Of a DNA stretch of 64,000 nt, positions 1,163 through 63,325 are shown in pieces. Below the pieces are notes generated by a model that was not told the origin of the DNA, searched no databases, and saw only the letters and a list, made by a program, of their open reading frames with translations. Position 1 is the stretch's first letter; the number at the start of each line of letters is the position of its first letter. The translations under genes were made by a program, and so were the position numbers. The stretch covers positions 3,225,512 to 3,289,511 of the forward strand of contig NC_057719.1 in assembly GCF_004010195.1 (NCBI RefSeq), given 5' to 3'. Source of the stretch: Chiloscyllium plagiosum (taxonomy: Eukaryota).

Positions 1163-1817
1163 TACACAACAGACCAAAACAAGACACAACACCCCCAGAG
1201 ACTCTAGCCACCCTGCCATACCTTAAATACATCACAGAGATAATGACCAGACTACTGCAGCCCCTAGGCATCATGGTAGCCCACAAACCTACCACCACAC
1301 TGAAACAGCTCCTGATGAACCGAAAGGACCCTGTACCAACAACCAGCAGAATGAACATCATATACAAAATACCCAGCAAGTACTGCAACAAACACTGCAT
1401 CGGACAGACGGGCAGGAAACTAGCCACCAGGATACATGAACACCAACTAGCCACCAATGACATGACCAACTTTCACTGGTATCCATACACACAGACAAAG
1501 AGGGACAACAGTTCGACTGGGACAACACATCCATCCATTCTTGGCCAGGCTAAACAGAGACACACACGGGAATTCCTGGAGGCCTGGCATTCAAGCCAGA
1601 ACTCCATCAATAAGCACATCAATTTGGACCCCATTTATCAACCTCTCAAAAAAAACTGGAAATGATATCACCCACCACAACAGACCAAGACACAGAAATA
1701 GAAAGTGGGACAGAACACCAGCGTTTCACCGGAGGCTCACTGATGATGTTACCCAGCATGGTGACGAAACATCTGAGAACAAACCTACCAGTTCAGCGAG
1801 CTAACTTACAACCTGAG
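1163..1817 (+). mobile_element. Penelope-like element 3' fragment (GIY-YIG endonuclease plus terminal repeat)
   Basis: ORF 1243..1665 reads NIIYKIPSKYCNKHCIGQTGRKLATRIHEH...REFLEAWHS, a PLE GIY-YIG domain. Same family as 43581-46513. Confidence 0.9.
1736..1777 (+). ncRNA. Minimal type-I hammerhead ribozyme motif in PLE terminus
   Basis: ctca-CTGATGA-t-gttacc(cagcat)ggtgac-GAAAC-ATC-tgag: catalytic core, 6-bp stem II and stem I ctca/tgag. Confidence 0.75.
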
Positions 1818-1829
1818 TCTTATTGGACT

Positions 1830-2085
1830 TGAGACTCTCTTTAAATTAAGGGGTGGTAGGTATAGGACAGATGTTAGGGGTAGATTCTTTACTCAGCGAG
1901 TCGTGAGTTCATGGAATGCCCTGCCAGTAGCAATGGTGGACTCTCCCTCTTTATGGGCATTTAAACGGGCATTGGATAGGCATATGGAGGATAGTGGGCT
2001 AGTGTAGATTAGGTGGGCTTGGATTGGCGCAACATCGAGGGCCAAAGGGCCTGTACTGTGCTGTATTTTTCTATGTTCTATGTTC
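1830..2085 (+). mobile_element. CR1 LINE 3' end with (ttctatg)n tail
   Basis: FFTQRVVSSWNALP-type C-terminus, a conserved CR1 3' UTR and a tandem tail. Confidence 0.8.
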
Positions 2086-2159
2086 TCCCCACATATGCTG
2101 TCAGACCTGCTGAGTTTCTCCAGCACCTGACCTTTCATATATCCCTTTGGCTGTTCACA

Positions 2160-2700
2160 AAAAGCAAGTTACTGATTGTAGCTAAACAGCCTGCACTTCC
2201 AAAACCCACACCACAGTTCCCACAATGAGATGTGATCTTACAACTGGTCAATATTTACTGGATAATACTGAACGTGTGAAGAATTACGCTGATAACGAAT
2301 TTCAGGTTGTCACCGTGTGTATGGAAGCTCCCCATATCCACACACAAGGCTGTATTCTTTACGGACAGAAAGAATATGTACACATAGTTCCTGTTTCAAT
2401 TCAACAGAGTAAATAACAGCATTTTGGTGGTTCATTCCTTAGGACAATACCTTGACCAGCCATCAGTCAGAGTCATCCTGCTTGGTTTAAGGTTGAACAA
2501 TGCCTGTCTGTTATCTGTCAATCAGCATGAATTGGTGCTGTCTCATGACAACACATCTATCAATCAAAGTCAATTTGCTCGCAAATCAGCACTCCTTTCT
2601 CATGCAATGTAAATCTCGTGTCTCCCCTTGAGCTTGTGTACTTGTGAAACATTCTGATGTATGCAAAGTGAAAAACTTTGCTCACACTTGTCTTTATTCA
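2160..2700 (+). mobile_element. Old, degenerate Penelope-like 3' fragment
   Basis: ORF 2225..2416 resembles a PLE C-terminus (GQYLLDN...MEAPHIHTQG). A decayed ctgatg...gaaa motif lies near 2653-2675, and related pieces lie at ~7300-7620 (-) and ~59240-59420. Confidence 0.5.
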
Positions 2701-3800: not shown

Positions 3801-4334
3801 CTTCACCATTAAACCACATTCTCCTTGCAATAGGAACAGCGATATTCTTGAGAGGCAAATCAATGGTTAGAGAAAAGGCCTCGCTTACTTTACGAACAAT
3901 CTTGTACAGTGAAAATTACGATGATCTGGAACAAGACAGTAATTTTTCTTTTTCCTGAGAAATTAAAGCAAGGCCAGAGTTTTCGCAGGGTCACTGCCTC
4001 TGCCTGGCCTGAGCATCTCGGAGTGCAGGCGATGAAGAGGATCTTAGGCACTTTAGAAGAGCATTCTGGGGCAACTCGCGCTCTGTTTCAAAATGTCAAC
4101 ACACATTCAAGAAGCATTTTGCTAAGTCAGAACTGGTTAGGATAAAGAATCAATGAGGCATCATGCACCGCCTGGGAAGGGATATTTAACAATTTGTTCA
4201 TCTCCTTGTAGAAGATGGTAAATAATTATGACAAGGGAAGAGGTCCTGGACACAGTAAAGTGGTCCTTGACTCAGTCAGCTCCTGTGCAGGCAGAAAGCC
4301 AGCGACTCCTGTTTCAGAAAACAAACAATTAAAC

Positions 4335-4912
4335 AAGGACGCCTCTTCTTCCTCAGGCAGCTCAGGAAATTCCGCATGTCTATAAGGACCCTCAGCAACA
4401 TTTACAGATGCACCATCGAGAGCATACTGTCTGGGTGCATCACGGCCTGGTACAGCAACTGCTCTGCCCAGGGCCGTAAGGAACTACAGAAGGCAGTGTG
4501 CACAGCCCAGACCATCCCGGAAGCCAACCTCCCATCCATGGACTCCATTTACACTTTTCGTTGCCATGGAAAGGCTGCCAACAGCATCAAAGACCCCTCC
4601 CACCCTGGTAATGATCTCTGACAGCCTCTTCCATCAGGTAGAACATGCAGAAGCTTGAGCACACGCTACAACAGGTTCAGGAACAGGTTCAGGAACAGCT
4701 TCTTACCTGCTGCTATTAAACTGATGGATAGACTCTCCAACTTTAAATAAGGTTGATCTTGCTCCAAGCCCCTCCTGTGCATCTGTACGCCTCGCACAGT
4801 TTGAACACCCTATGGTCTGTATGTCCTTGTTCACTATGGTCTGCCTGTACTGCCCACAAAACAAAGCTTTTCACTGTACTCAGGTACACACGACTACAAT
4901 AAATCAAAACAT
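4335..4912 (+). mobile_element. Rex1/Babar-like LINE 3' fragment
   Basis: RLFFLRQLRKF...YRCTIESILSGCITAWY...IKDPSHP, ending in an aataaa tail. Confidence 0.75.
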
Positions 4913-5429
4913 CAGATGCTGACGATCTGAACTAGAAACACAAATTGTTGGAGAAACTCGGCAGGTCTGGCAGTATCTATGGAGAGAAAACTGTTCTGAT
5001 GAAAGGTCACTGGACACAAAATATTAGCTGTGTTTCTCTTTGCACAGATGCTGCCAGACTTGCTGAGGTTAGAACATCGAACATTGAACAATACAGCACT
5101 GGAACGGGCCCTGCGGCCCATGATGCTGTGTCAAACATGACGCCAACGTAAACTAATCCCTTCTGCCTGCCCTTGGTCCATATTCCTCCATTCGTTGCAT
5201 ATTCATGTGCTTATCTAAAAGTCTCTTAAACATCTATATCGTATTTGCCTCCATACTTTCTCCAGCAATTTCTGTTTTTGTTTTCTACTGTACCTACCAT
5301 TAGACAGCAGGAATGTCCACACCAATGGGAAAGGCTTTAGAAGCTGCCCATCCATAGAACCTTAGAAAGTAAGAGGCCATTCAGCCCTTCAAACCTGCTC
5401 CACTATTCAATATGATCACTGCAGATCAT

Positions 5430-7160
5430 CTAACCCAAACAGACACCTGGCGATTATGGCAAGGACTGAAAGACATCACAAGTTCTAAAAAAAGACAGAG
5501 CAAGATAGCAGACAATGACACATTCCTCCCAGATCATTTCAATGCCTTCTATGCTCGCTTTGAGCAGAATTTTGGTGGAGAGGTAACACCTATTCTGATG
5601 AACCTATCCCAACAGTCACTGCATCAGAGGTCAGATCAGTTTTCCTTCGGGTGAATCCAAGGAAAGTGATGGGACCAGACGGAGTACCAGGCCGTGCATT
5701 CAGGGCACGCACAGATCAACTGGCAGAGGTCTTCTCGGACACCTTCAACCTCTCCCTGCAGCAGGCCACTGTCCCTGCCTGTTTCAAGAGGGCCAGCATC
5801 ATCCCTGTGCCTAAGAAGGCTCATGCAACATGTCTCAATGACTACCGTCCAGTGGCCCTAACTTCGGTGGTCATGAAGTGCTTTGAAAGGCTGGTCATGG
5901 CATTAATCAACTCCAGGTCTCCATTAACCTTGACCCACTCTAATTTGCCTATCGGACCAACAGATCCACGTCAGATGCCATATCACTTGCCGTTCACTCC
6001 TCCCTAGAACATCTTGACACCAAGAACAGCTAGGTAAGAATCTTACTCATTGACTCCAGTTCAGCCTTCAACACTATTATCCCGTCGAGACTGATTACTG
6101 AACTTAGCGATCTCGGACTAAGCCCCACTCTCTGCAACTGGATCCTCAGTTTCCTGACCCACAGGCCACAATCAGTGAAGATTGGGGACAATATTTCATC
6201 GTCACTAACACTCAACATGGAGCCCCCCAGGGGTGTGTACTCAGCCCCTACTGTACTCACTGTATACCCATGACTGCATCGCCAAATACCAGACTAATGC
6301 CATTTACAAGTTCACTGATGACACCACCATACTCGGTCGAATCTCAGATGGCGATGAAACAGACTACAGACGGGAGGTGGAAGACCTGGAAAAATGGTGC
6401 ACTGAGAACAACCTAGCTCTCAATGCTGGCAAAACCAAAGACCTCATTATTGACTTTTGGCGGGATATTACTCATGCCCCTCTACACATTAACAGCATAG
6501 AGATGGAACGAGTGGAGAGTGTCAAGCTCCTGGGAGTGCTCATCCACAACAAGCTTTCTTGGACTCTTCATGTGGACGCACTGGTTACAAAGGCCCAGCA
6601 ACGTCTTTTCTTCCTCAGGCAGCTGAGGAAATTTGGCATGACGGTGAATACCCTTGCCAACATTTATAGGTGCACCGAGAGCATTCTGTCTGGATGTATC
6701 ACTACCTGGTATGGTAACTGTACCATTCAAGATCAGAGACGGTTACAGAGAGCAATGAACTTGGCCCGGACAATCACAAAGGTCAACCTCCCATCTATAG
6801 AATCCATCTACCAGGCCCACTGTCAAGGAAAGGCCGCCAGCATTCTCAAAGATCCATCCCACCCTGGCAATGTTTTTTTCTACAACCTCTACCATCGGGG
6901 AGAAGGTACAGAAGCCTGAACACACGCAGCAGCCGGTTTCGAAACAGTTTCTACCCGACTGTTGTTAGATACTGAATGGACTCACAAACAGTTAACATTC
7001 GCCCGTACCTGTGTTTTTGTTTTTGACGCTGTTTACCTATTATTTACTATCTACGCTACTTAACTGTGATCTGCCGGTATTGCTCGCAAAACAAAGCTTT
7101 TCACTGTGCCTCGGTACATGGGACAATAAATTCAGTTCAATTCAATTCAATTCAATTCAA
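5430..7160 (+). mobile_element. Rex1/Babar-like LINE, 5'-truncated RT pseudogene with (ttcaa)n tail
   Basis: ORFs 5651..6007 (GPDGVPGR, NDYRPVALTS) and 6233..6919 (KFTDDTT, KAQQRLFFLR) are frameshifted. Tail is aataaattcagttcaattcaattcaa. Confidence 0.85.
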
Positions 7161-8237
7161 TAACTCAGCACTCCATTCCGACTTTCTCCCATACCCATAT
7201 CCTTTGGTCTATTTGGACCTAAGGAATATATCTATTGTTCTTAAAACGTTGTGGCCTTAACTACTTTCTGTGGCAGAGAATTCCAAAGTAGGATGAATTA
7301 CATTGTATGAGAGCAGAGTGCTGTCTGAGTGGTAAGCAGACTCTGATTCATTCAGGAAATGCTATCAAGGATGCAACAGTCAATGAGGACTAACAGTTAA
7401 CTGCCAATCTTTTGTATAAATTTTTAACCAGGCAGTTGACCGTTTGGTCCTTGAGAAATGAATCGGAGAATGGCTGTCACTTATTTTGCTGAGTTAAAGC
7501 ATGTGCAGTGCACATACATGTTCTTCCTGTCTGCAAAGAACAAGGTAAAAGCATTGACTGCAGATGCTGGAAACCAGATTCTGGGAAGAACGAGTCCCTG
7601 TATATTAATACCTGAGGCTTCCAGACCAGGCAAGTCCACCCCAGGCCAGGCCTGACTAACCCTGGACTGGTTCATTAATTTTCTTTCACTATCCTTACCT
7701 GGTCTGGTCTACGTGTAACTCCAGGCCGACAGCAATGAGGTTGACTCTTGAATGTCCCCTGGACAATTAAGGATGGACAAGACAGCAATGAATGAATTGT
7801 TAAACTCTTACAGTGGGAAGGGGGAGGACACAGTTGCCCATGTAGATGCCAGTGATACAGATAGACCAGGTAAGTGGTTCTGCAGAGAGAGTATGAGGAG
7901 AAAGGCACTGGCTTACAGAATGGAAGCTCAAAAGATACAAAATCTGGATTATTATCTGAGATTGTGCAAATTGGGGTGGGGTATATAACTTTAGAGAAAT
8001 CGCTACATGGTTCTGAGACTGGTGTTGGGCCAGTGGGCCCGGGTATGTGGGTCACTGACACCTGTATGAAAGAAACTACTATTGGAGTGGTCTACACATG
8101 AATCGTAGTGCAGGTGATATATTTCGGAAAGTAGAGAGGGTTTTAATAGAAGAGTGAGGCAAGGCATAATCAAAGAAGGAAGGATGTGGTATGTCAGAGA
8201 TGTAGTGAGAAAGGATGCGAGCAATGTAGGAACTGAA

Positions 8238-8530
8238 GATTAGATTAGATTCCCTACAGTATGGAAACAGGCCCTTCAGCCCAACCGTCCGAAGAGTAAC
8301 CCACCTGGACCCATTCCCCGACTACATTTATCCCTGACTAATGCATCTTACACTAGGGGCAATTTAACATGGCCAATCTACCTGACCTGCACATCTTTGG
8401 ACTGTGGGGGGAAACCCACGCGGACACGGGGAGAATGTGCAAACCCCACACAGTCAGTCACCAAAGCACGGAATCGAACCGGGGTCCCTGGTGCTGTGAG
8501 GCAGCAGTGCTAACCACTGAGCCACTGTGG
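8238..8530 (-). mobile_element. HE1-like V-SINE (tRNA-derived)
   Basis: Reverse complement has A-box gtggctcagtggttagc, B-box ggttcgattcc and the V-domain tttgcacattctccccgtgt. Confidence 0.85.
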
Positions 8531-9584
8531 AGCAGGATGGAAAGAAAGGGCAGGGGGAAAATACCTAAAGAATATACCAATCGTTTAGACCGGATGTCAC
8601 AAAGATAGCAAAACGACAATATGAAAAGCCCTGTATCCGAGTGTGTGCAGTATTCACAAAAACACAAACCAATTGATGGGACACAGTTAAATAAAAGGAT
8701 ATGATCTGGTGGCTATTCCAGAGGCCTAGCTGCAGGATGGCTAGGATTAGGGCCGAATGTTAATGGATATGTGACACTGAAGAAGAATACGAAGCTGGGT
8801 AAAGGTGGAGGGTGGCACTGCCAGTCAAAGAGTGCACACTGGCAGCAGTTAGAGATGATCATGGCTCCGGAGATCGGGATGTGGAATGGGTTTGCAGATA
8901 AGGAATAGTCAGGAAAAGAGGTCTCTGATGAGAGTGGCCAGCAGGGTCCTGTGCAGAAACTACAATGTGGTGCAATATATACAGGAGAAAATACTAAGAG
9001 CTTCTGATAAAGGGAAGCAGCAGGAATGGGTGACTTTAATCTCCATATAATCGGGAAAAATCAGATTGGCAGGAGTATTCTGGATGAGGAATCCTTGTGT
9101 CTGAATCACAAAAGATTCATATTCAGATACAGATCATAACCAAGGAGGTTAGTGTGCTGCTATCATTTATTATACCAGGAATTGAACTTAAGAGCGTGAA
9201 ATGCACGCCCTGCAACAGTAGGAGACTCACCAAATGTAAGGGTTTTTAAATGGGCATTGGATAGACATATGAAGGAATAGGTTGGATTCAGATTGGTTTC
9301 ACAGGTCACCACAACATTGAGGGCCAAAGGGCCTGTACTGTGCTGTAATGTTCTATGTTGTATATTCTAAAAGTAAGGATATTGTGCTTCTTTGAGATCC
9401 CATCTTGATTACTGTGTGCAGTTTGGTTTTCTATTTGGAAGAAAGGATGTAAATATGTTGAATGTAGTTCAGAGCGGGGTTTACTGGAGTAATACCGGGA
9501 GTGAGTCAGTTATCGCATGAGGAAAGGTGAAATAGACTGGACTTGTCTCCACTGGAGCTAACAATGATGTGGACAAGGTCCGAA

Positions 9585-9665
9585 GTCACACTACGCCAGG
9601 TTATAGTCCAACAGGTTTATATGAAATCACAATCTTTCAGAGCACTGCCCCTTCGTCAGGTGAAG
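9585..9665 (-). mobile_element. PLE terminal fragment with hammerhead motif
   Basis: Minus strand reads CTGACGA-a-ggggc(agt)gctct-GAAA-gatt, then aaacctgttggactataacctgg (same family as 63230-63320). Confidence 0.6.
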
Positions 9666-9700
9666 TGAGAGAGAAGCACACAGTCACAGAGTTTATAGGC

Positions 9701-10282: not shown

Positions 10283-11584
10283 GGAGTTGATTGAAGTGTG
10301 GAAGATCCTGAATGATCCTTGTGGTAAGGTCAGCCAGGTGCATTTCCTCGAATCTGAGCTCCCTGACTGAGCATGTTAACCTGTTCCAATGAGGGAGTCC
10401 TGGCTGACAGACAGAAACGGAAATGTCAAGGGTTCTGTTTCCTCTAAGAGGTGCTTCTGAGGGAGCTAGATCAGCGTTAAGGCCTCTCCATGTATCAATA
10501 AATGGTGACTCAGTGACGGGGAACATGCCTGTGTATAGACATTCCAGTTCTGAATAGGTGGATGTCTAAAGGATGTTTCCTGCTGTGGCTGGGCCCAGAA
10601 CGAGAGGGCATTGCTTAATAATTAAGGGTCACCCCTTTAGGACATCCTTTGAGATGAGGAGAACCAGTTACTGACTAAGGATTGTCTGACTTTGGAGCTC
10701 TGTTTCTCAGACGGTGATGGAGGCAGGGTCAATGAATATTTTTAAGGCAGAGGTGGTAAGTTTATTGTTAAGTCAAGAAATTAAGGCTTATCGGGGAATG
10801 CTGATCTCAAAACAGATCCGAACTGCCGTGGTGCAAGCTGGAGGGGCTGAATGGTCTCCTGTTGCTTCCGTTTTGTATGTTGTAGCTGCTTCATGGACTC
10901 ACCATCTGGACCTGTGAAAGAACTGGACAGTTCCACTGGTGTTTCTCAGTCAAAACCTGATCCTTTAACTCACTGGGGTTTGTGTGAGCTTGCTGTGTGT
11001 AAATTGGTTGTTTAGAGCAGTGACAACATTTCAAAAAAGACATTCCTTTGACACAACCTGAGCGGTGCTACGGAAATGCAAGTTCTGTCTGAACTGAAAG
11101 CAAAATCTTGCCGATGCCAGAAATCTGAAATAAACGCAGAGAAATGCTGGAGAAACCCAGCAGGTCTGGCAACAGAGAGAGAGAGAGAGAGAGAGACAGA
11201 GTTAATGTTTCAAGTTGGGTATAATTCTCCTTTAGAATTCTGAACTTTGCAATGCGGGAGCTGCCTGGTCAGCAGGAGATGTTTTCCTCTCCTGGCAGCA
11301 AGGGTTATGAAGAAGCCTAAAATGCCGACTCTCCTGCTCCTCAGATGCTGCCTGACCCTCTGTGCTTTTCCAGAGCCACACTTTATTGACTCTCTCCTTT
11401 TCCGGCATCTTCCCTTGTCTCCTGACCCTCATCGCCATGACCTCTCCATTGCTCGCCTCTGGCCAAGGCCCTTGGGCCTTGGGGGAGTGTTGTCATGGTT
11501 ACCGGTGCTACCTTCCCAATGGCACTGCCACTTCGTAAAGCTGTTGAATGGGGGGGGGGGGGCATTCAGAACAAATTTGGACCG

Positions 11585-16210: not shown

Positions 16211-17003
16211 TGAAGGACTGTGTCGTTTTGTTGGAGCTGAACAGTTTAGATACATGCTACAGACCGTGACAGGTTTCCAGGCAAACTGCATTGTTTCCTG
16301 GCTTCTGCCATTGGTTAGTAACTTCAACACAAGGGGAATTTTATGCCAGCTGGGATTTACTCACCGAGATTTCTCAGTATTTTAGAGATTATCTACCATT
16401 CCCAGCCTACAAGCCCAGAGATGTTTTCCTGCACATTTCCACATGCGAATTTTGAGATGCTATTTCGGATTCACATTCCTGAATCATTGATGCAAATAGT
16501 TAGCAACAGTGAGGCAGTGACCATAGGGTTTGGAATGTGAACTGGTTAACAGGCAAAAACCAGACCGTGGGGGCGGGGGGGGGGAGAAAAAACAGATATT
16601 TTCTGTGGTGTTTGCTGTTTGTGATGTATTATAATGACTTAGACTTCAATATAGGAGGCATCATTAAGGAAATGTGCAGATGAGACAAAAGTAGACCAAA
16701 CAGCTGACAATGAGGTTGACTAGGTGAAGGTGAGGACTGCAGATGCTGGAGATCAGAGTCTAGATCAGAGAGGTGCTGGAAAAGCACAGCAGGTCAGGCA
16801 GCATCCAAGGAGCAGGAAAATCAACATTTCGGGCAAAAACCCGATTGACTGCTGACTGTTGGATCATATTTATTGACTTGGCTGAAAAACCTGTTTCCTT
16901 TTTGAATTCAAACTTCACCATTTCCCACATAAGATCTAAACCCAATTGACCAGGACATTACTGTAAACAACAAATGCTGGAGATCACAGCGGGTCAGACA
17001 GCA

Positions 17004-17034
<31 letters not shown>

Positions 17035-17297
17035 CAAGCCTAACGTTTCATTCCCAGGAGATTCTTCATCAGAGCAGTACCTGGGCCTCCATTAGCAGCT
17101 CCATAATAATACCATGAGACCGTCACCTGCTTGAGGTGACCTTAAACAAATCCTTTCCTGAGAATTCTCTTCCCTGCTCTGCCAAACTGTGTGGATAATA
17201 TTCCACAATCTGCTGTTGTAGTTAAAAGAAAAACTTGGATTTGTATTGCGCCTGAGAATATACCAAAACACTTTCCACTCGATGAAGCTGCTGAAGT

Positions 17298-18345: not shown

Positions 18346-19025
18346 CAGTTCTGTCGAAAGGTCATTGGACCTGACTCATTAACTCTGTTTCTCTCTCCGC
18401 AGATGCTGCCAGACCTGCTGAGTTTTTCCATCATTCTCTGTGCTTGTTTCTGAGCTTTCACTCTCTGGATTAGCATCACTATGAAACTCAGTGATGTTAC
18501 CTACTGGGATCCAACATGCATCTGACACCTCAGCTGGTTCCTTTCATCCTCCTTCCACTAGCACCTCATGTGTGACAGTGAACATGATCTCTGCTGTCAG
18601 GGGAGAGAGTTGAACTGGAGATAGTTAACAAATAACCTGCACAGACAGGTAAGAAAATCTTCCTGGTCATGTGCACCCACTCCTCACCCTCAGTCCCAGC
18701 TCTTTGCTGAGTGATGTTTTTCACATGCTTCTCCAGCGCTAATGTGGGGCCCATCTTCCTTCATGTGCTCCCTTGGGACAGGACTTTAATGATTCAAACT
18801 TGGCCCACACCATTCATAGAAACTGGGAGCAGGCCCTTCAAACCGGCTCCTTCAATCAACATGATCGCGGCTGATCATCCAACTCAGTCCCCTATTCCCA
18901 CTTACTCCCTTTACCCCCTCACTCCTCTCTGAGGATATTCAACGTTTGGCCTCAACCTCTTCCTGTGGCAGAGAATCCCACAGGCTCGCCACTCACTGGA
19001 CAAAGACATTTCTCCTCAGCTCAGT

Positions 19026-37002: not shown

Positions 37003-37040
37003 TCATTCCTGAAGAAGGGCTTATGTCCGAAACGTCGATT
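37003..37040 (+). ncRNA. Minimal type-I hammerhead ribozyme motif
   Basis: cattc-CTGAAGA-a-gggc(ttat)gtcc-GAAAC-GTC-gatt, with a G-U pair in stem II. Confidence 0.7.
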
Positions 37041-37767: not shown

Positions 37768-37882
37768 TTTGTTGTGGTTCTGTTCGCCGAGCTGGGAATT
37801 TGTGTTGCAGACGTTTCGTCCCCTGTCTAGGTGACATCCTCAGTGCTTGGGAGCCTCCTGTGAAGCGCTTCTGTAATCTTTC
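37768..37882 (-). mobile_element. Short PLE terminal fragment with intact hammerhead motif (37807-37846)
   Basis: Minus strand reads gca-CTGAGGA-t-gtcacc(tagaca)ggggac-GAAAC-GTC-tgc. Confidence 0.75.
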
Positions 37883-41066: not shown

Positions 41067-41320
41067 AGAAGGTGAGGACTGCAGATGCTGGAGATCAGAG
41101 CTGAAAATGTGTTGCTGGAAAAGCACAGCAGGTCAGGCAGCATCCAAGGAGCAGGAGAATCGATGTTTCAGGCCTGAAGGAGGCCCTCTAGTAAAGAACT
41201 GCGGATGCTGTAAATCAGAGACAAAAACAGAAATCGCTGGAAAAGCTCAGCAGGTCTGGCAGCATCTATGGAGAGAAATCAGAGTTAATGTTTCGGGTCC
41301 AGTGACCCTTCCTCAGATTT
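41067..41320 (-). mobile_element. Two adjacent PLE terminal fragments; the second carries a hammerhead motif (41287-41316)
   Basis: Minus strand reads CTGAGGA-a-gggtc(actg)gaccc-GAAAC-ATT. Confidence 0.65.
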
Positions 41321-41334
41321 CTATGTTTGTCTAT

Positions 41335-42530: not shown

Positions 42531-43580
42531 GTTTTTATTCACAAAATTACACAATGAAACACAAAAAACAGAATAAATAACCCCTACAGAACTCAGTCTA
42601 TCCAAACCAAATGTAATTATGCTGTTCTGAATACACACAACAGTCTCAATTAGCAAACTCCCTTTAAAAACCAGTATAAATAGAACACATGCTTACAGGT
42701 TGAAGTTGAAGGGCAGAAAAGAGCATTTCCAAACAGCTCCCTGTTGAACTTCGCAGTTCAAGACTGAACTAAAATCTGCTCAGCTCAGCTCAGCTCAGCT
42801 AGAGAGATGACCACTCCCCTTGCTTTATACAGGTCACTTCTAAAGCATGACCACTTTGGCCTGAAGTCTCATCTGTTTGCATATAAACAGAAGGCCTCTC
42901 AAAATCCTTTTCATCTCTGTACCAAACCAGACTGATCAGAGCCCGGCCCAGTTTATTTCCCCTCTGAGAAAAAACAATGACAGAGTCTCCTTGAGCCAAG
43001 GACCAGCTTTTAGATAAAAAGGGACTAGCTTTGTGACACCTCCCCCCTTAAAAAGTGAATCATCAATACCAAAAGATGGCTTCACTTTTAACCCTTCGAA
43101 ATGCGGTTAGTAGTCTAAACATACTGATACACTATGCTAACTATAAACATGCAAACATGCACAACCACATGCAAATTCAGGCCACGGTACACCGACCACC
43201 GAACGCCTCCGTATCTCATTCGAGTCTCGATAACGCATCGGCTATCACGTTTTTGTGACCTGCCACAGGCACAATTGTCACATTGACTGGCTGTAACAAC
43301 ACGCTCCATCTAAACAGGCTGGCATTTTTTGTCCTTAAAATTTTTCCACAAATGTCAATGGGTTGTGATCAGTGTATACGATTGTCTCAGATGCGTTGCT
43401 GGTAATATAAACACTGAAATGTTGTAATGCCAGCACCAAGCTTAAAGCCTCTTGCTCCACTGTAAAGTATTTCTGTTGATGAACATTCAACTTCCTGGAA
43501 AAATACCTGATGGGCCTTTCTATTCCCTCGTCATCCTTCTGCAGGAGCACCGCATCGACACCCACATCGCTGGCATGGAT

Positions 43581-46513
43581 TGGGTTTGCTCGCTGAGCTG
43601 GGAGGTTCATTTCCAGACGTTTCGTCACCCTACTGGATAACATCTTCAGTGGGCCTCAGGCAAAGTAGTGTACGTGATTCCTGCTTTCTATTTATATGAG
43701 TGGGTTTCTTTAGGTTGGTGATATCATTTCCTGTGGTGACGTTATTTCCTGTGATGAAGTCATGAAGTCACTTCCTATTCTTTTTCTCAGGGGGTGGTAA
43801 ATGGGGTCTAACTCGATGTGTTTGTTGAGTTGCTAAGACTTATGGGCGCATTACCCTAAAAATGGCCCAAAAATGGGAATCTAATGCCATCTGACAGAAT
43901 GCCACCCACGACAGCAGTACCTCCTGCATGAATGCCTAAGGAAACAGGTACTACCTAAATGTCTTCAAGGCAAATCTCCCCTTAACACCTCACTAGCCAC
44001 AAGAATAGCACAGCAAAACGGCTGCAGAATGCTTAGAGAAATTATTAATGATGCCCACAACAGACTCTGTAAATACAACTGGGAAATTTTACATCTAAAA
44101 TCTTTACTCACTCATGCAACAGACCATAAATGGACAGACACAGTACAACAAGCCACAGATATTAGACAGCGACAAACATAGAAAATGGAAAAAAAAAACT
44201 AGACCTGCAGTAAAAACTAGACAAACTTACACAAAGTAACAACACAGACAACACAGAAGCATGGATATAAAACTTATCTGACCAACCCTTAACAGACACT
44301 GAAAAAGCTGTCTTAGTAGGAGGATTAAATTGCAACTGCCAGGTTGTGGACAAGAAAGATTTCTTAGCAGCATTAGACACAACACTAAACGACAACCAAC
44401 TCATAGAAGAAACCCAACAAACCATCAGACAGGTAGTCGCACCAACATTAAGCAGAAAAAAGGAAGGAGAAACACTCAATACACAAGAAAGGAAAGCATT
44501 GGAAAGACTAAAAAAAGATAAAAACATTGTTATCCTCCCTGCAGACAAAGGACGCTTGACAGTCATTCTAAATCGAATAGATTACATTGTAAAAGTAAAC
44601 GCACTACTTGCGGATACCAACACTTAGCAACAAGTGGTGATAGACCCAACCCCACAACTAGAGAACTAAATCACAGCCCTATTCAAAAAAACTTCAGAAA
44701 TCTGGAGAAATAAATAAGACCAACTTCCAAAAAATGACCAGATGGATCCAACACCCCACGCTTCTACGGATTACCCAAAATTCACAAACCAGGAGCCCCC
44801 CTCAAACCCATAGTCTTGCTACCTGGAACACCAACTTACCGACTGGCCAGGGAGCTACACCAAAGACTAAAACACTTTAGAAGGCTCACACCACTCCATC
44901 TACTCCATCCAAGAATTCCCAAAGACCATCAAAAATAGAAGAGGATGAATTAATGGTCTCCTTTGATGTAACAGCACTATTTACATCAATCAACATTAAC
45001 CTGGCCAAGGAAACACTGACTACACTATTAGAAGACCCAAAGACACATACACCAAACACCACTAACTTCGTCAACAAGGACAGTATCGACAAGCTAGTGG
45101 AGCTATGCCTTACCACCCACTTCACCTTCAACAACAAAAACCTACAGACAAACCAACGGAACACCCATGGGATCTCCAATGTCAGGGTTCTTAGCAGAGA
45201 CAGTAATGCAGAGACTCCAACAAACAGTTCTACCAACCATCCAATCCAAACTTTGGGTCCACTACGTGGATAACACTTTTGTCATCATTAACCGAAACAA
45301 ATTAGAGGAAATCTTCAAGACCATCAATAATATTCTTATTGGCATAAAATTTACTGAAGAGGAGGAAAACAACAACAAACTGCCATTCCTCGATGTCACA
45401 GTAGAGTGAACAGCCAATGGGGAAACCACTAACTTCGTCAACAAGGACAGTATCGTCAAGCTAGTGGAGCTATGCCTTACCACCCACTTCACCTTCAACA
45501 ACAAAAACCTGCAGACAAACCAACGGAACACCCATGGGATCTCCAATATCAGGGTTCTTAGCAGAGACAGTAATGCAGAGACTCCAACAAACAGTTCTGC
45601 CAACCATCCAACCCAAACTTTGAGTCCACTACGTGGATGACACCTTTGTCATCATTAACCGAAACAAATTAGAGGAAATCTTCAAGACCATATTGGCATA
45701 AAATTTACTGAAGAGGAGGAAAACAACAACAAACTGCCATTCCTCGATGTCACAGTAGAGTGAACAGCCAATGGGGAACTTCAAACCTGCGTCTACAGAA
45801 AACACACAGACCAAATATTCAGCTACAGAAGCAATCACCCCAACATCCACAAACGAAGCTGCATCAGAACATTATTCCAATGAGCCACCGCACACTGCAG
45901 CACAGAGGAACTACGCAGAGCAGAGGAAAATCACCCATATAGTATATTCAAAAAGAACGAGTACCCAATGAACACAGTCCGCAGATTTCTCAGCAACAAA
46001 CCCAAACAAGTAGACAACACACATCTAGAAACCCTAGCCACTTTCCCCTACATCAAAGACATCTCTGAAATGACTGCCAGACTACTCAGACCCCTTGGCA
46101 TCATGGTAGCCCACAAACCCACCAACACACTAACACAGCAGCTAATGAACTTGAAAGACCCGATTCAGACAACAAGCAAAACTAATGTCATTTACAAAAT
46201 ACCGTGCAAGAACTGTAATAAACACTACATTGGACAAACAGGCAGAAAACTAGCCACCAGGATACATGAACATCAACTAGCCACAAAACGACGTGACCCT
46301 CTCTCTCTCACCTCCTTACATACAGATAAGGAAAGACACCACTTCAACTGGGACAACACATTCATCTTAGCATATAAATAGGAACCATGAATCATGGACA
46401 CTGCTTCACCTGAGGCCCACTAAACATGTTACCTAGTAGGGTGGCAAAACCTCCCAGCTCAGCGAGCAAACCTACATCCAGAACCTTAACCTGAGCTGCA
46501 AATCTTGTCAAAG
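43581..46513 (+). mobile_element. Near full-length Penelope-like element (RT plus GIY-YIG) with inverted 5' terminal repeat, inserted in the Gypsy RNase H
   Basis: ILPADKGRLTVI, VSFDVTALFTSI, MGSPMSG, YVDD/YVDN, YKIPCKNCNKHYIGQTGR. 15-bp TSD atc(g/a)ctggcat(g/c)gat at 43566-43580/46514-46528. Confidence 0.9.
43613..43652 (-). ncRNA. Minimal type-I hammerhead ribozyme motif in inverted PLE repeat
   Basis: Minus strand reads cca-CTGAAGA-t-gttatc(cagtag)ggtgac-GAAAC-GTC-tgg. Confidence 0.75.
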
Positions 46514-47075
46514 ATCACTGGCATCGATAGCCACCTTGAAAGGCTTTGTGTAATCTGCTGTGGCTAATACTGGGGCAGTGGTTAACACAGTGTTCAGTGT
46601 CAAATGCCTTTTGACAGTCCGCTGTCCACTGAAACTTCTTGCCCTTTTTTTAACAATTTGGTGAGTGGAGCAGCCACACTGCTAAAGTTTGGTACAAGTT
46701 TTCAGTAAAATCCACTCAACCCCAGGAACCGGAGTACTGCTTTGTTTTGCCGACGGTGTGGAAAATTTACCAATTACTTTTGTTCTTGCATCTCGTGGGG
46801 CTACTTGTCTATGTCCAATAACATGGCCCAGAAAGGGGACTTGGGCTTTGACAAATTCACTTTTAGCTCAGTTTAACCACCAAGCCTGCCTTCCGAAGAT
46901 GATTGAGCAAGTTTGATAAATGCTGTAAATGTTCCTTCCATGAGTGACTAACAATCACCAGGTCATCAATATACACCTCACAATTGGGTAATCTGGCAAT
47001 GACCTTATTAGTCAGTCTCTGAAATGTGGCTGGAGCATTTTTCATACCAAATGGCATGGCTATGAACTGATATAG

Positions 47076-47182
47076 GATTCTGGATCAGTGGTGCTGGAAG
47101 AGCACAGCAATTCAGGCAGCATCTGAGGACAGGCAAAATCAACGTTTTGGGCAAAAGCCCTTCATCAGGAATCAGCCCTTCA
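47076..47182 (-). mobile_element. 107-bp PLE-terminus mini-insertion with perfect 15-bp TSD
   Basis: TSD tatgaactgatatag at 47061-47075 and 47183-47197. Minus strand reads CTGATGA-a-gggc(tttt)gccc-aaaacgtt (GAAA mutated). Confidence 0.85.
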
Positions 47183-49311
47183 TATGAACTGATATAGTCC
47201 ATTTGTCGTTATGAAAGCCGGAATTGCTTTTGCTCTCTCTGACAGAGATACATGCAAGTCATCTCTGAGCAAGTCCAACTTAGAAATGTAAGTTGCTTGT
47301 CCCACTTTTTCAACACAGTCCTCCAATCATGGAATTGGATATGTATCAGTCTTTGTAACGGCGTTGACTTTGCGATAGACGGGTACCATCTGCCTTTGGC
47401 ACCATGACTATGGGTGATTTCCAGTCACTGTAACTCACTTTGATTATGCCATTTTGGAGCATGCACTCTATCTCCTACTGAACCTGTGCCAACTTTAGAG
47501 GGTTATGCCTATAAGGATGTTGCTTAATTGGAACAGCATCCCCTCTATCTACATCATACACAATTAGGTTAGTAATTCCCAGTTTATTTCTGAATATCTC
47601 CCCATGTGATAATAACTCTTTCAGGTCATTTCAATTTTTTATGGAAGCTAACTCAATTTATCCCAATTTTTGACAACTTTCCCATTGTCCAATTTGATTT
47701 GAGGAATGTTCAATTCAGAATCCTCTGAACTTGGTTCTTCCGTCTGTGCTGTAATCATTATCACCGTCTCCTCTTGCTTTCCTTCCCTATCAAAATACCC
47801 TTTGAACATATTCACATGACACACTCTGTGAGATTTCTTCCTGTCTGGAGTCCTTATCAAGTAGTTCACCTCACTCAATTTCCTCTCAATTTGATAAGGT
47901 CCACTAACCTTGCTTTTAAAGGCTCACCTGTTATTGGGAGTAACATCAATACATTATCCCCAATTGCAAAATTGTGAATTTGCAATTTCTTACCCACTTC
48001 CTGTTTCACTGTATGCTGTCTAGCCAACTCTCCAGCTCTATTTAATCATTCTCTAAAATGTGACACATTGTCAAAATGGGTGGTCTCTGAACTCTGACTT
48101 ATTAATTTCTCCTGAATCAGTTTTAACGGACATCTTACTACATGCCCAAAAATTAATTCAAATGGACTGAATTTGGTCAATTCATTTGGTGCATCTCTGA
48201 TTGCAAAATGTACAAATGGAATTCCGTTATCCCAATCATCTGGATAATCCTGACCATAAGCCCTCAACATGCTCTTTAGTGTTTGATGCCATCTCCCTGC
48301 AATTCCGAATGGTACGCATAGATTTGAATTGTTTTATTCCCAAGTTATCCATAACCTCCTTGAATAGTTTGAAATTTTATCCTTGATCTGACTGGATCTC
48401 TATTGGTAGTCTGTATCTAGTAAAAAATTTAAGTAATTCTTCTAAAACCCTTTTAGCTGTGATGTTGCGAAAAGGGATTGCCTCTGGAAATCTAGGCGAC
48501 TCATCCATTATTGTTAATAAATTCTTATTCCCACTTTTTGTTTGAGGTAGGGGACCTTTGAAATCACTCAAGACTCTTGTGAAAGGTTCCTCAAATGCTG
48601 GAATAGGTATTAAAGGTACAGGTTTTATTACTGCCTGTGGTTTTCCGATTGGCTGACATGTGTGACATATCTGGCAAAATTCAACTACATCTTTGTGCAG
48701 TCCAGGCCAGTAAAAATGTCTTTATATTTTAGCCTGTGTTTTCCTCACCCCTAAATGACCTCCAAGTCGTAGCTCATGCACCAGTCGCACCACTTCCTTT
48801 CTGTACCCTACTGGCAAAACAATTTGATGAATCTCTGCCCATTTCTCATCTGCTTCAATATGTGATGGTCTCCATTTCCTCATTAAGGTATCATTTGTTA
48901 AGTAATAACACACACAGATGCATTCACTTTCTTTCTTTGTAAATGCCTTTTGATATAACTGTCTTAACTCCTCATCTTTCTGCTGTAATTCAATCAGCTT
49001 AGCAGAGCTAAAGATGTTTGCATGTTTACCTATTTGCTCCTTCTCTGTTCCTTAACTGATTGAAAAACATCTCGGATAACACTATGTCAGCTTCCTTATC
49101 TGTCCCTTTTGATCTCTCCTGCTTCAGCTTGTTCCTCTGTGATCTTGTGATCACACAATCAGGGAAAATTCCTGAATAAAGATCCTTGATTTCTTCAGTT
49201 GCCTGTATCTCTATTGGCTTTTCGATTAGAGTGGGCAGCACACCTACCGGTGAATCAGCTATATCATTTACAAGGGCACATTGTATTCTGTCTGCCCTGG
49301 AGCTGAGAGTG

Positions 49312-50622: not shown

Positions 50623-50830
50623 CCGAGGAGAAAGTGAGGGCTGCAGATGCTGGAGATCAGAGCTGAAAATGTGTTGCTGGAAAAGCACAGCAGGTCAGGC
50701 AACATCCAAGGGACAGGAGAATTGACGTTTCGGGCATAAGCATTCCTGAAGAAGGGCTTATGCCCGAAACGTCGATTCTCCTGTTCCTTGGATGCTGCCT
50801 GACCTGCTGCGCTTTTCCAGCAACACATTT
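50623..50830. mobile_element. 208-bp fold-back PLE-terminus insertion with hammerhead motif and 14-bp TSD in the Gmr1 5' LTR
   Basis: TSD tcactt(c)(t/c)aaagca at 50609-50622/50831-50844, ~78-bp inverted arms, and core CTGAAGA...GAAACGTC at 50746-50773. Confidence 0.88.
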
Positions 50831-59418: not shown

Positions 59419-60240
59419 TGTGATGGACTAGACCAGACCCCCTCAAAATATTTCTAGAAATTAGCCCAGACTCTAAATTTGCTAACTGTTTTCAGCAGGT
59501 GGAAAGGGGATATTCCAGGAAAGATGCAGCTGGTCAAACCAATTAGATTTAAATAAAACAGATTTTATTTACAAGATGACCAAATGAAACACAAACAAAA
59601 ACGAATACAACACAAAATAACTGAACCTCTCCGAAAACCCAGATTACTTTAAGTACATTTAAGTCGCCATTGGACAGGCATATGGACGTACATGGAATAG
59701 TGTAGGCTGGATGGGCTTCAGATTGGTATGACAGGTCGGCGCAACATTGAGGGCCGAAGGGCCTGTACTACGCTGTAATGGCCTATGTTCTATGTTCTAT
59801 CTCAAATTAATGATGCTGTTCATTTAAGTCGCCATTGGACAAGCATATGGACGTACATGGAATAGTGTAGGTTAGATGGGCTTCAGATTGGTATGACAAG
59901 TCGGCGCAACATCGAGGGCCGAAGGGCCTGTACTACGCTGTAATGGTCTATGTTCTATGTTCTATCTCGAATTAATGATGCTGTTCCAAATTCCTGCAAC
60001 AATCCCTGTGAACACCCCTTGGCACACAAGGTGAAATCAAACACAGGGTCTTACAGGAGGAAGAGAGAGAGATGGTAGAGAGAATCAGCCTGGAAATACC
60101 TTCTTCCTTGGAGCTGTTTCTTGGTCCAGCAGCCTCCCACCGCCTGACTGCTTTCAGTGAACAGCCAGACAGCCAGAGACCAAACCAAACCAACCCAGAG
60201 ATAAGCTGAGTTGGGAGAACTGGCCATGCCCCTTTCATAT
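59419..60240 (-). mobile_element. Solo-LTR-like sequence related to the Gmr1 LTRs, containing a duplicated CR1 tail
   Basis: Starts tgtgatggactagaccagacccc, like tgtcatggactaagccagaccac at 50186, and shares the tttatttacaa...caatgaaacacaaa block. No internal ORFs. Confidence 0.65.
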
Positions 60241-60859
60241 AAAATCAAATGTTTCAACAAAACTTTTCACTAATTCTTTAGAATCGTCAAAAATACAGAG
60301 GGCAGTGTAAATATGACAAGCAAAGTTAAAAGACATTACAATTTTTGTCATTTTTCTGTCAAATTATTTGCTTGCACCAATGACCTGGAGATTAATTTCA
60401 AATTCCAGATCTTTCCATGGCAATCCTAATAGGATGGGAATTGAAAGCCATGACTGATGGGATCCAGACTCACAGTCAAGTGTAGTGCGAATTATAAATT
60501 TGTCTGAGGATCAGGAGGAGTAGCAGTTAAAATGGGTCGAATAGATTTAGGTCTTCATTGTCCTGTACCTGGAACTAGTGTAAATGTTGCCAACTCCAGG
60601 AAACCTCCAGTACCCCCAGCAGTGTGTCAGAATTGAAGATCAGTTTCCAATACACTGCCCTAAGCAAATATAACATCATAAAGACCAGGAGCATGAGGCC
60701 ATTCAGCCACTTGAGACTACCCCACTCCAACATGACTGATAGATGCAGAGGGATCTTTATCAAATGGGTCAATGGACTGAAACAAGGCAGATGGAGTTCA
60801 ATCTGAATAAATGTGAGGCATTTCAATTTGCTAAAACAAACAAATCAAGATAGATGAAT

Positions 60860-62130
60860 CCCCAGGGAGGGACCATCTTGAACATTCCCTCCCCTTCCTG
60901 GACTTCTCCATCTCCATCTCTGGCGACCGACTAACTACTATGAACCTACCGACTCCCACATCTACTTGGACTACCCCTCCTCCCACCCTGCCCCGCCAAA
61001 AAACACCATCCCTTATTCCCAATTTCTCCGCCTCTGCTGCATGTGTTCCCAGGATGACCAATTCCACCATAGAAAATCTCGGATGGCCTCCTTCCTCAAA
61101 GATCACAATTTCCCCTCTCACGTGGTCGACGATGCCCTCTAGTGCATGTCCGCCACTTCCTGCACTTCTGCTCTTGAACCCCGCCCCTCCAATCGCAACA
61201 AGGACAGAACCCCCTGGTCCTCACCTTTCACCCCACCAACCTCCGCATGCGTTGCATCATCCTCCACCATTTCCACTACCTACAAGCAGACCCCACCACT
61301 AGAGATATATTTCCCTCCCCACCCCTATCAGCATTCCATAGAGACTATCCTCTCCACGACTCTCTTGTCAGATCCACGCATCCCCTCCCCCTACCCCTAG
61401 CCCACACCCACTCCCGGCACCTTTCCCTACCACTGCAGAAATTGCAAAACCTGTGCCCATACCTCCCCCCTCACCTCTGTCCCAGGCCGCAAAGGAGCCT
61501 TCCACATCCAACAGAAATTTACTTGTACTGCTCCCAATCTCATCTACTGCATCCGTTACAACCAGTGTGGTCTCCTTTACATCGGGGAGACAGGACACCT
61601 TCTTGTGGATCATTTCAGAGAACATCTCTGTGACACCAGACCCACCAAACCCACCACTGAACACTTCAACTCCCCTGCCCACTTCACCAAAATTATGCAG
61701 ACCATGGGCCTCCTCCATCACCAAACCCTAACCACCTGACACCTGGAGGAAGAATGCCTCATATTCCGCCTTGGGAACCCTCCAACCATGCGGGATAAAT
61801 GTGGATTTCACTAGTTTTCTCATTTCCCCTCCCCACACCTTATCCCAGTCCCAAGCCTCAAACCCGGCACCACCCTCCTGACCCATTGTCTTTCCCATCT
61901 AACTGCTCCACCCTCCTCTCCGACCTATCACCTTCTCCCTCACCTCCATCTACCCTGTCACATTCCCAGCTACCTTTCCCCCAACCCCCCCCCCCATTTA
62001 TCTCTCAGCCTCCCGGCCCACAAACCTCATTCCTGATGAAGGGCTGATGCCTGAAACGATGACTCTCCTGCTCCTTGGATGCTGCCTGACCTGTTGTGCT
62101 TTTCCAGCACCACACTCTCGACTCTACCCT
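60860..62130 (+). mobile_element. PLE 3' fragment (RT C-terminus, GIY-YIG, terminal repeat with decayed hammerhead at 62033-62060)
   Basis: IPYSQFLRL, LIYCIRYNQCGLLYIGETG, and CTGATGA-a-gggc(tgat)gcct-GAAAC-GAT. Confidence 0.85.
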
Positions 62131-63184
62131 CTGAGAGGGCAATTCGGGATGGCCAACAAATCCCAGGGACGCCCATGCCTGAATGAATAACAAACAGGAT
62201 GGAAAACCTAGTGCAGCCCTGTTCAAGTATTCCTCAGGAACTTCAGCTTTGTCAGGAACAGACAAATTGTCAACAACAAAAAAGCCCAAGAGTCAACCGA
62301 CGATAAATCACCAGGATTAGTTTTGGTTGAGGATTAATGGGTTGGATTAACAAGTAGTGTGAACGCTGCAGGGCATCAATCCAAAGCCTTGCACACATTT
62401 CCTTGACGGAGCCTCATCAAACACACAGTAAATCTGTGTTTTTACTGAGTTTGTTTTTTGCTGGGGTTGAAAAGTGATAGAAATGTGCTGTTGGGTTCAG
62501 CTAAGAGCTGCAACTAGTCTGAGAGAGTTCTAACATGGCCCCATTTGTTTCAGCAAGTTGATGGTGTGCGTGCATTCATGAAATTGTGAGGAAATGAAAG
62601 GAGATTGATCAGCCCCTCATGCCCCGGCCGGTCGCCCAATGAGTGTTTTGATTCAGTGCCATTTTCCCACCTTTCCCCCTCCCCCCTCCCCCCCCCCCAA
62701 CACCCTTGCTTTTATTTAAATAATCACCCAATCTCCTCTTGATTGCTTTAGCTAACTCTGCCTCTGCCAGCTTCCAGGCAGTGCATTCCTGACTGAAATA
62801 TTTGGATGAAACCATGTTTTTCCTCACATTGCATTTCTTTATTGAAGTCTGTTTAACTCTGCGCCCTCTCATTCCTGATCCTTTGACAAGCCGGAACAGT
62901 GTCTCCCAGATTTACCCTCTGCAGGGAGTACCTCTCCTATCTATCCACGAAACTGAAGTTTCTCATTCCTGAAACCATTTTGAAAATTGTTTCTGCGCTC
63001 TCTCCACTGAGTTTACATGCTCCCTATAGTGTGGTGCCTAGAACTGTACAGAACACTCCAGTCAAAGTCTAACAAGTGTCCCATACAAATTCAGCGTCAC
63101 CTCTTTGTTCGTAATAATGAAGGCCAGGCTACTGTATGCTTATCATCTGCTGTTTCTGCCTGCCATACCTCCTCAAGGATTGAT

Positions 63185-63325
63185 ACACATAAATTCTTTT
63201 GTTATAAATTCTGTGTCTTATGATCCTGCTTCACTACCACTTGATGAAGGAGTGGCGCTCCGAAGTCTAGTGCTTCCACATAAACCTGTTGGACTATAAC
63301 CTGGTGTTCTGTGATGTTTAACTTC
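63185..63325 (+). mobile_element. PLE terminal fragment with degenerate hammerhead motif
   Basis: ttgatga-a-ggag(tggcg)ctcc-gaag...taaacctgttggactataacctggtg; same family as 9585-9665. Confidence 0.55.

What the first reader, a model, noticed from the sequence alone, without database searches (positions are those of the whole stretch)
1736..63270. Dense population of minimal hammerhead ribozyme motifs from at least four Penelope-like families, with covarying stems
Seen: CUGANGA-[stem II]-GAAAC-NUH cores at 1736-1777(+), 20166-20193(+), 37009-37036(+), 37807-37846(-), 41287-41316(-), 43613-43652(-) and 50746-50773(+). Variant or decayed copies lie at ~9631-9660(-), ~17043-17075(-), ~47140-47170(-), 62033-62060(+) and ~63240-63270(+). 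Stem II differs between families but always pairs (gttacc/ggtgac, gggc/gccc, gggtc/gaccc, ggag/ctcc). Stem I covaries among three related copies (ctca/tgag, cca/tgg, gca/tgc). Stem III is reduced to the short palindrome ACGU. Established: PLE terminal repeats carry minimal type-I hammerheads thought to cleave as dimers. Inference: about one motif per 5-6 kb would imply a very large genomic ribozyme reservoir in this lineage, invisible to ORF annotation.
Basis: partly seen in the sequence, partly recalled or inferred. Interest (0 to 1): 0.72.

Follow-up and report, generated by a model that had tools for sequence, protein, structure and literature searches.

The report
Penelope hammerhead stubs in shark DNA
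The motifs are real copies of the tiny hammerhead self-cutting RNA motif already known from Penelope-type jumping genes, most of them decayed end-pieces that are likely so common only because the motif lies next to the end where copying is predicted to start; RNA reads show that one family also supplies a polyadenylation site just behind the predicted cut.

Summary
All 12 sites exist as stated. Five pass a strict minimal-hammerhead descriptor against 0.04 in shuffles; nine carry at most one mismatch against 0 in 60 shuffles. Families C and E share B's tail. Family D has no ORF link. Of 25 pLTR pieces found, only 5 are intact; several defects are CpG-type decay, and no intact motif has a close same-strand partner. 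The predicted cut lies 35-96 nt from the element's 3' end, so short insertions keep it: a likely by-product, not a selected reservoir. The kind is published (Cervera and de la Pena 2014), though at lower copy numbers. 'Stem III = ACGU' holds for 7 of 12 sites; family D's majority is AGCU. RNA reads show poly(A) 27-30 nt after D's predicted cut, on uncut molecules. Cleavage was not shown. This scan has noted the same thing many times on other DNA of this and other genomes, including the poly(A) site.

The parts
1167..1815 (+). 5'-truncated family A (Poseidon-type) PLE: broken GIY-YIG end, pLTR, tail
   Evidence: P0002 matches 1132-1653 and 1655-1801
1736..1777 (+). Family A min-HHR; core intact, stem I 4 bp, stem III ACAU (mismatch); predicted cut after 1773
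43613..43652 (-). Family A min-HHR, intact (stem II 7 bp, stem I 3 bp, ACGU), on the inverted arm of a composite insertion; predicted cut at 43616
43570..46528 (.). Composite Poseidon-type insertion: inverted truncated copy (-, 43829 to about 43581) abutting a broken near-full RT-EN ORF (+, about 43836-46372), 3' pLTR and a tail of about 35 nt at one end only; flanked by an 11-bp repeat (1 mismatch) inside a Gypsy RNase H fragment
46420..46449 (+).
37807..37846 (-). Family A (second subfamily) min-HHR, passes the strict descriptor, one broken pair in stem II; stub 37769-37884 matching the C-terminus of RT protein P0005
20166..20193 (+). Family B min-HHR, intact core, stem II 4 bp, stem I 2 bp; in fold-back insertion 19787-20289 with a GIY-YIG fragment and a 16-bp flanking repeat (1 mismatch)
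37009..37036 (+). Family B min-HHR, intact; end of truncated element about 35988-37104 with an inverted 5' piece
50746..50773 (+). Family B min-HHR, intact; one arm of head-to-head stub 50623-50830 (other arm starts within stem II), 14-bp flanking repeat (1 mismatch)
62033..62060 (+). Family B min-HHR, cleavage triplet lost (GAU); end of truncated element about 60886-62125 with a Cys-rich linker and GIY-YIG
47141..47168 (-). Family B min-HHR, G12 changed to A; stub 47076-47182 with an exact 15-bp flanking repeat, inside a Gypsy RT fragment
41287..41316 (-). Family C min-HHR, core intact, stem II 5 bp, ACAU mismatch, stem I 5' strand missing; stub 41194-41335 with an exact 10-bp flanking repeat
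4991..5070 (+). Decayed family C copy (core from 4996), head-to-head with tail 4909-4989 (-); missed
18346..18455 (+). Decayed family C copy (core from 18351), exact 8-bp flanking repeat; missed
17042..17075 (-). Family E min-HHR, core intact, stem II partly broken; tail related to B and C
9631..9663 (-). Family D min-HHR, core intact, stem I 4 bp, stem III mismatch
63237..63272 (+). Family D min-HHR, decayed at 63241, 63265 and 63266 relative to the family majority; predicted cut after 63269
63279..63324 (+). Family D polyadenylation cassette: AATAAA in the family majority (this copy has C at 63279), poly(A) added after 63296/63299 in RNA reads, GU-rich tract behind

Best explanation
These are minimal type-I hammerhead motifs in the end repeats of truncated Penelope-like retrotransposon copies in a shark genome, and they are likely this dense because copying is predicted to start less than 100 bases behind the motif, so even very short insertions keep it and then likely decay without function. 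Steps. SHOWN: motifs exceed chance; A and B follow PLE endonuclease sequence; six insertions have 8-16 bp flanking repeats; the predicted cut lies 35-96 nt from the 3' end; copies run across the cut site; family A has an ATG built into the core/stem II junction; 20 of 25 pieces are decayed or truncated; family D RNAs are polyadenylated 27-30 nt after the predicted cut. FROM LITERATURE: reverse transcription of an anole Poseidon element starts inside the RNA 111-118 nt into the ORF, uses uncut RNA, and its hammerhead cuts only with the element's protein (PMC11167929); single min-HHRs do not cut and dimers cut weakly (PMC4209133). INFERRED: the shark templates were uncut RNA; a lone motif cannot close stem III (no loop) and would cut only as a dimer through the ACGU or AGCU palindrome, or with protein help, within the active element's life cycle; genomic stubs are passive by-products.
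For: enrichment; PLE proteins; best hit 86% identical to a Stegostoma RT protein; inverted arm + ORF + one-sided tail + flanking repeat, the layout drawn in PMC8557442; summed contig depth in X5 rises from 0.37 to 7.05 million over 100 nt towards the family B motif; heterogeneous 5' flanks pile up 4 nt before the core: 252 contigs in X5, 287 in X13, 206 reads in X21; defects at 1736, 41287 and 47140 are CpG to CpA, and 62033 and 9631 carry CpG to TpG; nearest same-strand intact family B motifs are 13.7 and 16.8 kb apart; (literature).
Against: No ORF link for C, D, E in the window or by searches. Neutral decay is judged from 25 pieces, with no genome-wide test. Family B stem I has only 2 contiguous bp, so its fold is less secure. 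RNA reads are strand-biased in the element's sense (about 8:1 at 37784-37817, 5:1 at 63259-63291, under 2:1 for family B), so some copies are transcribed and, in family D, polyadenylated, which is not purely passive. Six family B and four family C pieces begin within or after stem II, some close to the predicted cut, which could reflect cut templates.
Confidence: 0.85

Rival explanations
1. A functional reservoir: solo motifs in host transcripts cut in trans as dimers and tune RNA stability; in family D the cut would remove the poly(A) tail that the same cassette adds.
For: Very high copy number and sense-strand RNA reads; 653 of 1527 laid X21 reads carry poly(A) at 63296/63299; palindromic stem III would allow trans dimers.
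Against: Only 5 of 25 pieces intact; defects hit G12 and the cleavage triplet. No pile-up of read ends at any predicted cut (table 6; a weak test in a fragmented poly(A) library). Depth climbs smoothly across the family D cut (890 at 63266, 1085 at 63279). Published monomers are inactive.
Confidence: 0.08
2. The short copies are an independent non-autonomous family (retrozyme- or SINE-like) that amplifies through its own short RNA.
For: Several stubs of 100-140 nt have their own flanking repeats; 5' ends pile up just before the core; non-LTR retrozymes are reported in one chondrichthyan genome.
Against: No tandem hammerhead units in the window; the same sequence continues upstream into PLE ORFs in longer copies; 5' ends also fall at many other places.
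Confidence: 0.12
3. Family D (and perhaps C and E) belongs to a different retroelement class whose terminal repeat has LTR-like promoter and poly(A) signals.
For: D shows a TATA-like motif, AATAAA and a GU-rich tract, as in an LTR R-U5 junction (recalled comparison), and has no ORF link.
Against: Same min-HHR architecture with the extra base before stem II; heterogeneous 3' ends at 63314-63324 with an optional C-rich extension, like the PLE tail.
Confidence: 0.1
4. The motifs are chance matches.
For: A loose core-plus-stem search does give chance hits (mean 0.7 per shuffle; 6 of its 15 hits belong to none of these families).
Against: 5 strict hits against 0.04; 9 near-perfect hits against 0; fixed position in repeat families.
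Confidence: 0.01

Closest known systems
Minimal hammerheads (min-HHR) in pLTRs of metazoan PLEs (Cervera and de la Pena 2014, PMC4209133; parts 1-2 of 4 read, 2 supplements searched, 1 not searchable)
   Same: Core, extra base between positions 9 and 10.1, G10.1 pair, palindromic 15.2-16.2 without loop 3, many families per genome, mostly solo copies from truncated PLEs, inverted pairs.
   Different: Reported about 4,000 (coelacanth) and 9,000 (Xenopus) motifs per genome; here 80 strict motifs per Mb in one window. No shark named in the parts read or the supplements searched. Family B has shorter stems (II 4 bp, I 2 bp) than the 7-8 and 4-5 bp of the Schistosoma families.
Poseidon of Anolis carolinensis, PAc (Frangieh et al. 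2024, PMC11167929; parts 1-2 of 4 read)
   Same: ORF starts at the start of stem II with the cut 26 nt after the start codon (family A: 28 nt); two 3' ends differing by a 30-40 nt tail; no read ends at the cut in RNA-seq.
   Different: PAc was tested in vitro (protein-assisted cleavage, cleavage not needed for insertion); nothing was tested for the shark elements, and every ORF in this window is broken.
EN+ PLE clades Penelope/Poseidon and Neptune/Nematis (Craig et al. 2021, PMC8557442; 12 of 35 passages seen)
   Same: RT followed by C-terminal GIY-YIG; strong 5' truncation; adjacent inverted copy; one-sided tail. Family B carries the CX2-5CxxC linker, family A lacks it.
   Different: Clade placement here rests on motifs and similarity, not on a tree; C, D and E are unplaced.
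Non-LTR retrozymes (bioRxiv 10.64898/2026.07.22.740005; part 1 of 5 and 2 passages read)
   Same: Type-I hammerheads derived from PLE pLTRs; reported in one chondrichthyan genome.
   Different: Defined by tandem units each with a hammerhead; the copies here are solo or inverted.

Membership tests
Minimal type-I hammerhead (min-HHR) | Core CUGANGA ... GAAA with NUH triplet | tested here: met
   Core exact at 10 of 12 sites; NUH valid at 11 of 12
Minimal type-I hammerhead (min-HHR) | Extra base before G10.1 and paired stem II | tested here: met
   All 12 have the extra base and G10.1; stem II of 4-7 bp at 10 sites, one broken pair at 37807, two at 17043
Minimal type-I hammerhead (min-HHR) | Palindromic 15.1-16.1 with no loop 3 | tested here: met
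   ACGU at 7 of 12 sites; AGCU is the family D majority; 5 copies are mutated
Minimal type-I hammerhead (min-HHR) | Stem I | tested here: inconclusive
   3-4 bp in A and D, 2 contiguous bp in B and E, 1 bp at 41287
Minimal type-I hammerhead (min-HHR) | Significant covariation | tested here: inconclusive
   3 sequences; 2 of 13 pairs compensatory; 25 of 500 shuffles reach the score
Minimal type-I hammerhead (min-HHR) | Self-cleavage as dimer or with protein | not testable with these tools
   No read-end pile-up in one poly(A) library; weak test
Rfam hammerhead families | Match to a covariance model | tested here: not met
   0 hammerhead families among 35 matches at E up to 10
EN+ PLE, Penelope/Poseidon type (family A) | RT followed by C-terminal GIY-YIG, no CX2-5CxxC linker | tested here: met
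   GIY-YIG hit E 0.0006, just below Pfam's cut-off
EN+ PLE, Neptune/Nematis type (family B) | GIY-YIG preceded by CX2-5CxxC linker | tested here: met
   Linker in the copy ending at 62125 and in P0017
EN+ PLE | Inverted truncated arm, one-sided tail, flanking repeats | tested here: met
   flanking repeats of 8-16 bp at 6 of 14 insertions examined
EN+ PLE (families C, D, E) | PLE ORF upstream of the motif | tested here: inconclusive
   None in the window; public contig scans gave nothing relevant
EN+ PLE clades | Placement in an RT phylogeny | not tested
   No named reference set at hand
Non-LTR retrozyme | Tandem units each bearing a hammerhead | tested here: not met
   No such tandem among 146 self-matches

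The most novel reading that the evidence does not exclude
Family D is a portable 3'-end cassette scattered at very high copy through shark genomes: a working poly(A) signal placed 27-30 nt behind a dimer-dependent hammerhead. Host RNAs that end in it would carry a conditional self-deadenylation switch, tripped when two such RNAs or the element's protein meet, and the AGCU versus ACGU palindromes would keep the families from cross-reacting.
Probability: 0.1. Interest if true: 0.75.

Novelty: new member of a known kind. Interest (0 to 1): 0.3.

Why it matters
The kind is known, so the window mainly extends it to carpet sharks at a density well above published counts (80 strict motifs per Mb here against 4,000-9,000 per genome in coelacanth and Xenopus). 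Rfam misses the motifs. So many dated insertions would allow a test of whether PLE hammerheads cut in vivo and whether the element needs the cut, which is an open question. The family D poly(A) site would matter if it ends many host transcripts.

Tried and rejected
Whole-genome scan: no genome is held for this window, so the genome-wide count was not measured. Rfam: no hammerhead match; the microRNA hits at 20008-20167 and 50697-50790 are the fold-back insertions. Sequencing-run search listed no RNA holder by index (no evidence either way). Run X22 laid 0 reads (no test). Summed contig depth is five to six orders of magnitude above the single-copy flank (about 5 in X5, 9 in X8), but the tool states it is no copy number, so no figure is derived from it. 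Pattern scans: family D 23-mer, 0 loci in metagenome contigs; B/C descriptor, 29 viral-contig loci; B/C tail 19-mer, 81 metagenome loci. None showed a PLE protein match or extended beyond the short pattern, so all were treated as chance. A protein search with the family B tail frame found nothing, so the conserved ATG in the B/C/E tail is unconfirmed as the ORF start. MFE folding recovered stem II at 4 of 5 intact sites but neither the full hammerhead nor the strand-swapped dimer; uninformative for such short helices. The automatic register for 4996 and 18351 was off by one and was not used. Lunse et al. 2017 is not held; only its title and a review's summary were seen. PMC2377424 passages gave no statement on a Penelope poly(A) signal. 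Not-in-print statements rest on searches of a library lacking most subscription journals; unseen supplements (file 1 of PMC4209133, the bioRxiv supplements) may list shark motifs.
Full report
Observation. The 12 sites are present as listed. A strict minimal-hammerhead descriptor finds 5 in the window (20166, 37009, 50746, 43613, 37807) against a mean of 0.04 in 200 dinucleotide shuffles. The loose form (core plus stem II only) finds 15 against 0.7, of which 9 are listed sites and 6 belong to none of these families. A second descriptor finds 9 sites with at most one mismatch against 0 in each of 60 shuffles. Rfam has no hammerhead match at E up to 10.

Host and setting. No genome is held. The best relatives of the endonuclease fragment at 45884-46378 are RT-bearing proteins of Stegostoma (86% and 82%), Chiloscyllium and Hemiscyllium, so the host is likely a carpet shark. 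The Pfam hits among 50 ORFs scanned (of 137 listed) were RT, RNase H, integrase, GIY-YIG and ALKBH8_N; no host exon was identified, but none was sought specifically.

Families. Self-comparison and alignments give 25 pLTR-derived pieces: A 4, B 11, C 7, D 2, E 1. Family A: the motif at 1736 follows a broken GIY-YIG domain, and protein P0002 aligns through the motif at 1736, 43613 and 37807, while P0005 ends in the sequence at 37883-37830. The motif at 43613 is the inverted arm of one composite insertion: an inverted truncated copy abuts a broken near-full RT-EN ORF (about 43836-46372) whose own hammerhead at 46420 is destroyed; a tail of about 35 nt is present at one end only; an 11-bp repeat flanks the whole inside a Gypsy RNase H fragment. 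This is the layout described in PMC8557442 (passages). All three readable family A motifs have an ATG formed by A9, the extra U and G10.1, opening a short frame, as reported for the anole Poseidon (PMC11167929). Family B: motifs at 20166, 37009 and 62033 follow GIY-YIG fragments matching P0017, with a Cys-rich linker of the Neptune/Nematis kind; 50746 and 47140 are stubs of the same family. C and E share B's tail but show no ORF; D shows no ORF and no similarity to the others. Flanking repeats of 8-16 bp were found at 6 of 14 insertions examined.

Why so dense. The predicted cut lies 35-96 nt from the 3' end in the copies with a defined end. In the anole element, reverse transcription starts inside the RNA 111-118 nt into the ORF and uses uncut RNA. 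Applied here (inference), every insertion longer than about 100-130 nt includes the motif. Contigs of two organisms support the shape: summed depth in run X5 rises from 0.37 million at 36900-36933 to 7.05 million at 37002-37035, and heterogeneous 5' flanks pile up at 37005, 4 nt before the core (252 contigs in X5, 287 in X13, 206 reads in X21; 18 of 3055 loose-end rows were shown). In the window, 50742 and 47172 start there. This agrees with earlier scan notes that read the stubs as run-off copies of the RNA's front; I did not test the extra-G claim beyond one copy. The runs laid 90,607 and 85,927 contigs on the first 1-kb stretch (which also holds LINE pieces) and 23,162-25,202 on the second, against single-copy flanks of depth about 5-9. 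The families are therefore very high-copy, but the tool states that depth is no copy number and I give none.

Decay. Twenty of 25 pieces fail the strict descriptor. The defects at 1736, 41287 and 47140 are CpG to CpA and hit the stem III palindrome or G12; 62033 and 9631 carry CpG to TpG. Intact family B motifs are 13.7 and 16.8 kb apart on the same strand; the two intact family A motifs are 5.8 kb apart and differ in stem I. Published single min-HHRs did not cut and dimers cut weakly. Neither lay showed a place where many molecules begin or end, a weak test in a fragmented single-cell poly(A) library of which about 2 in 100 reads were read. Against a purely passive reading: reads are biased to the element's sense strand, and ten B/C pieces begin within or after stem II, some near the predicted cut.

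Family D. RNA reads (and, at 63241, 63265, 63266 and 63279, contigs of three DNA-type runs) show majority letters that give an intact core, an AGCU palindrome and AATAAA at 63279-63284. In run X21, 256 and 397 of 1527 laid reads continue into poly(A) after 63296 and 63299, 12-15 nt after the signal and 27-30 nt after the predicted cut (63269). The DNA there is not A-rich, and no poly(A) appears among the listed loose ends of the three contig sets (24 of 1289 rows shown). Depth rises smoothly across the cut, so these molecules are mostly uncut. The reads may come from few loci. Searches found no paper stating this; three earlier scan notes on this genome report it.

Comparison and verdict. PMC4209133 (parts 1-2 of 4) already describes min-HHRs in PLE pLTRs, many families per genome, solo and inverted copies, the extra base and the palindrome, with 4,000 and 9,000 motifs in coelacanth and Xenopus. 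Searches found no paper on shark PLE hammerheads, though a 2026 preprint includes one chondrichthyan genome and a whale-shark preprint notes expanded Penelope-like elements. Within this scan, 770 findings in at least 36 genomes hold the same words and 2410 notes in this genome fit 'hammerhead Penelope'; these are unchecked notes, not support. Verdict: real, a new member of a known kind, most likely a by-product of how PLEs copy themselves; catalytic activity is untested. Interest 0.3.

Noticed in passing
window 27693-32843 (-): Broken near-full LINE with an ORF1-like frame (32001-32843), endonuclease-like frames and a 445-aa RT frame (RVT_1, E 7.9e-29); L1/Tx1-like by recalled appearance, clade not tested.
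   Followed up: partly
window 43335-43570 and 46520-49051 (-): Broken Gypsy-type pol fragments (RNase H, RT, integrase) interrupted by two PLE insertions.
   Followed up: partly
window 20210-20290, 41200-41265 (-), 16965-17020 (-): The most conserved block shared by the B, C and E tails contains an ATG in a conserved short frame and also resembles a branch point plus 3' splice site; ORF start or intron end undecided.
   Followed up: partly
window 63203-63209, 43690-43699 (-), 46372-46381: TATA-like motif about 32-48 nt upstream of the hammerhead core in families D and A.
   Followed up: no
window 41065-41335 (-) and 11109-11420: Family B and C pieces inserted next to each other at two places.
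   Followed up: no
window 45058-45778: 367-bp tandem duplication (94% identical) inside the RT region of the composite Poseidon element.
   Followed up: no
window 20008-20167: 158-bp near-perfect inverted repeat formed by a family B fold-back insertion; it gives spurious microRNA matches in Rfam.
   Followed up: yes
P0010, P0012: Shark protein models named MAP3K7 isoform X3 and ZSWIM7 isoform X2 include family A PLE sequence: exonised or mis-annotated PLE fragments.
   Followed up: no
window 8237-8531, 15864-16159, 19032-19331, 19520-19787, 63733-64000: Dispersed repeat of about 290 bp with a weak tRNA match at 8459-8531, probably a tRNA-derived SINE.
   Followed up: no
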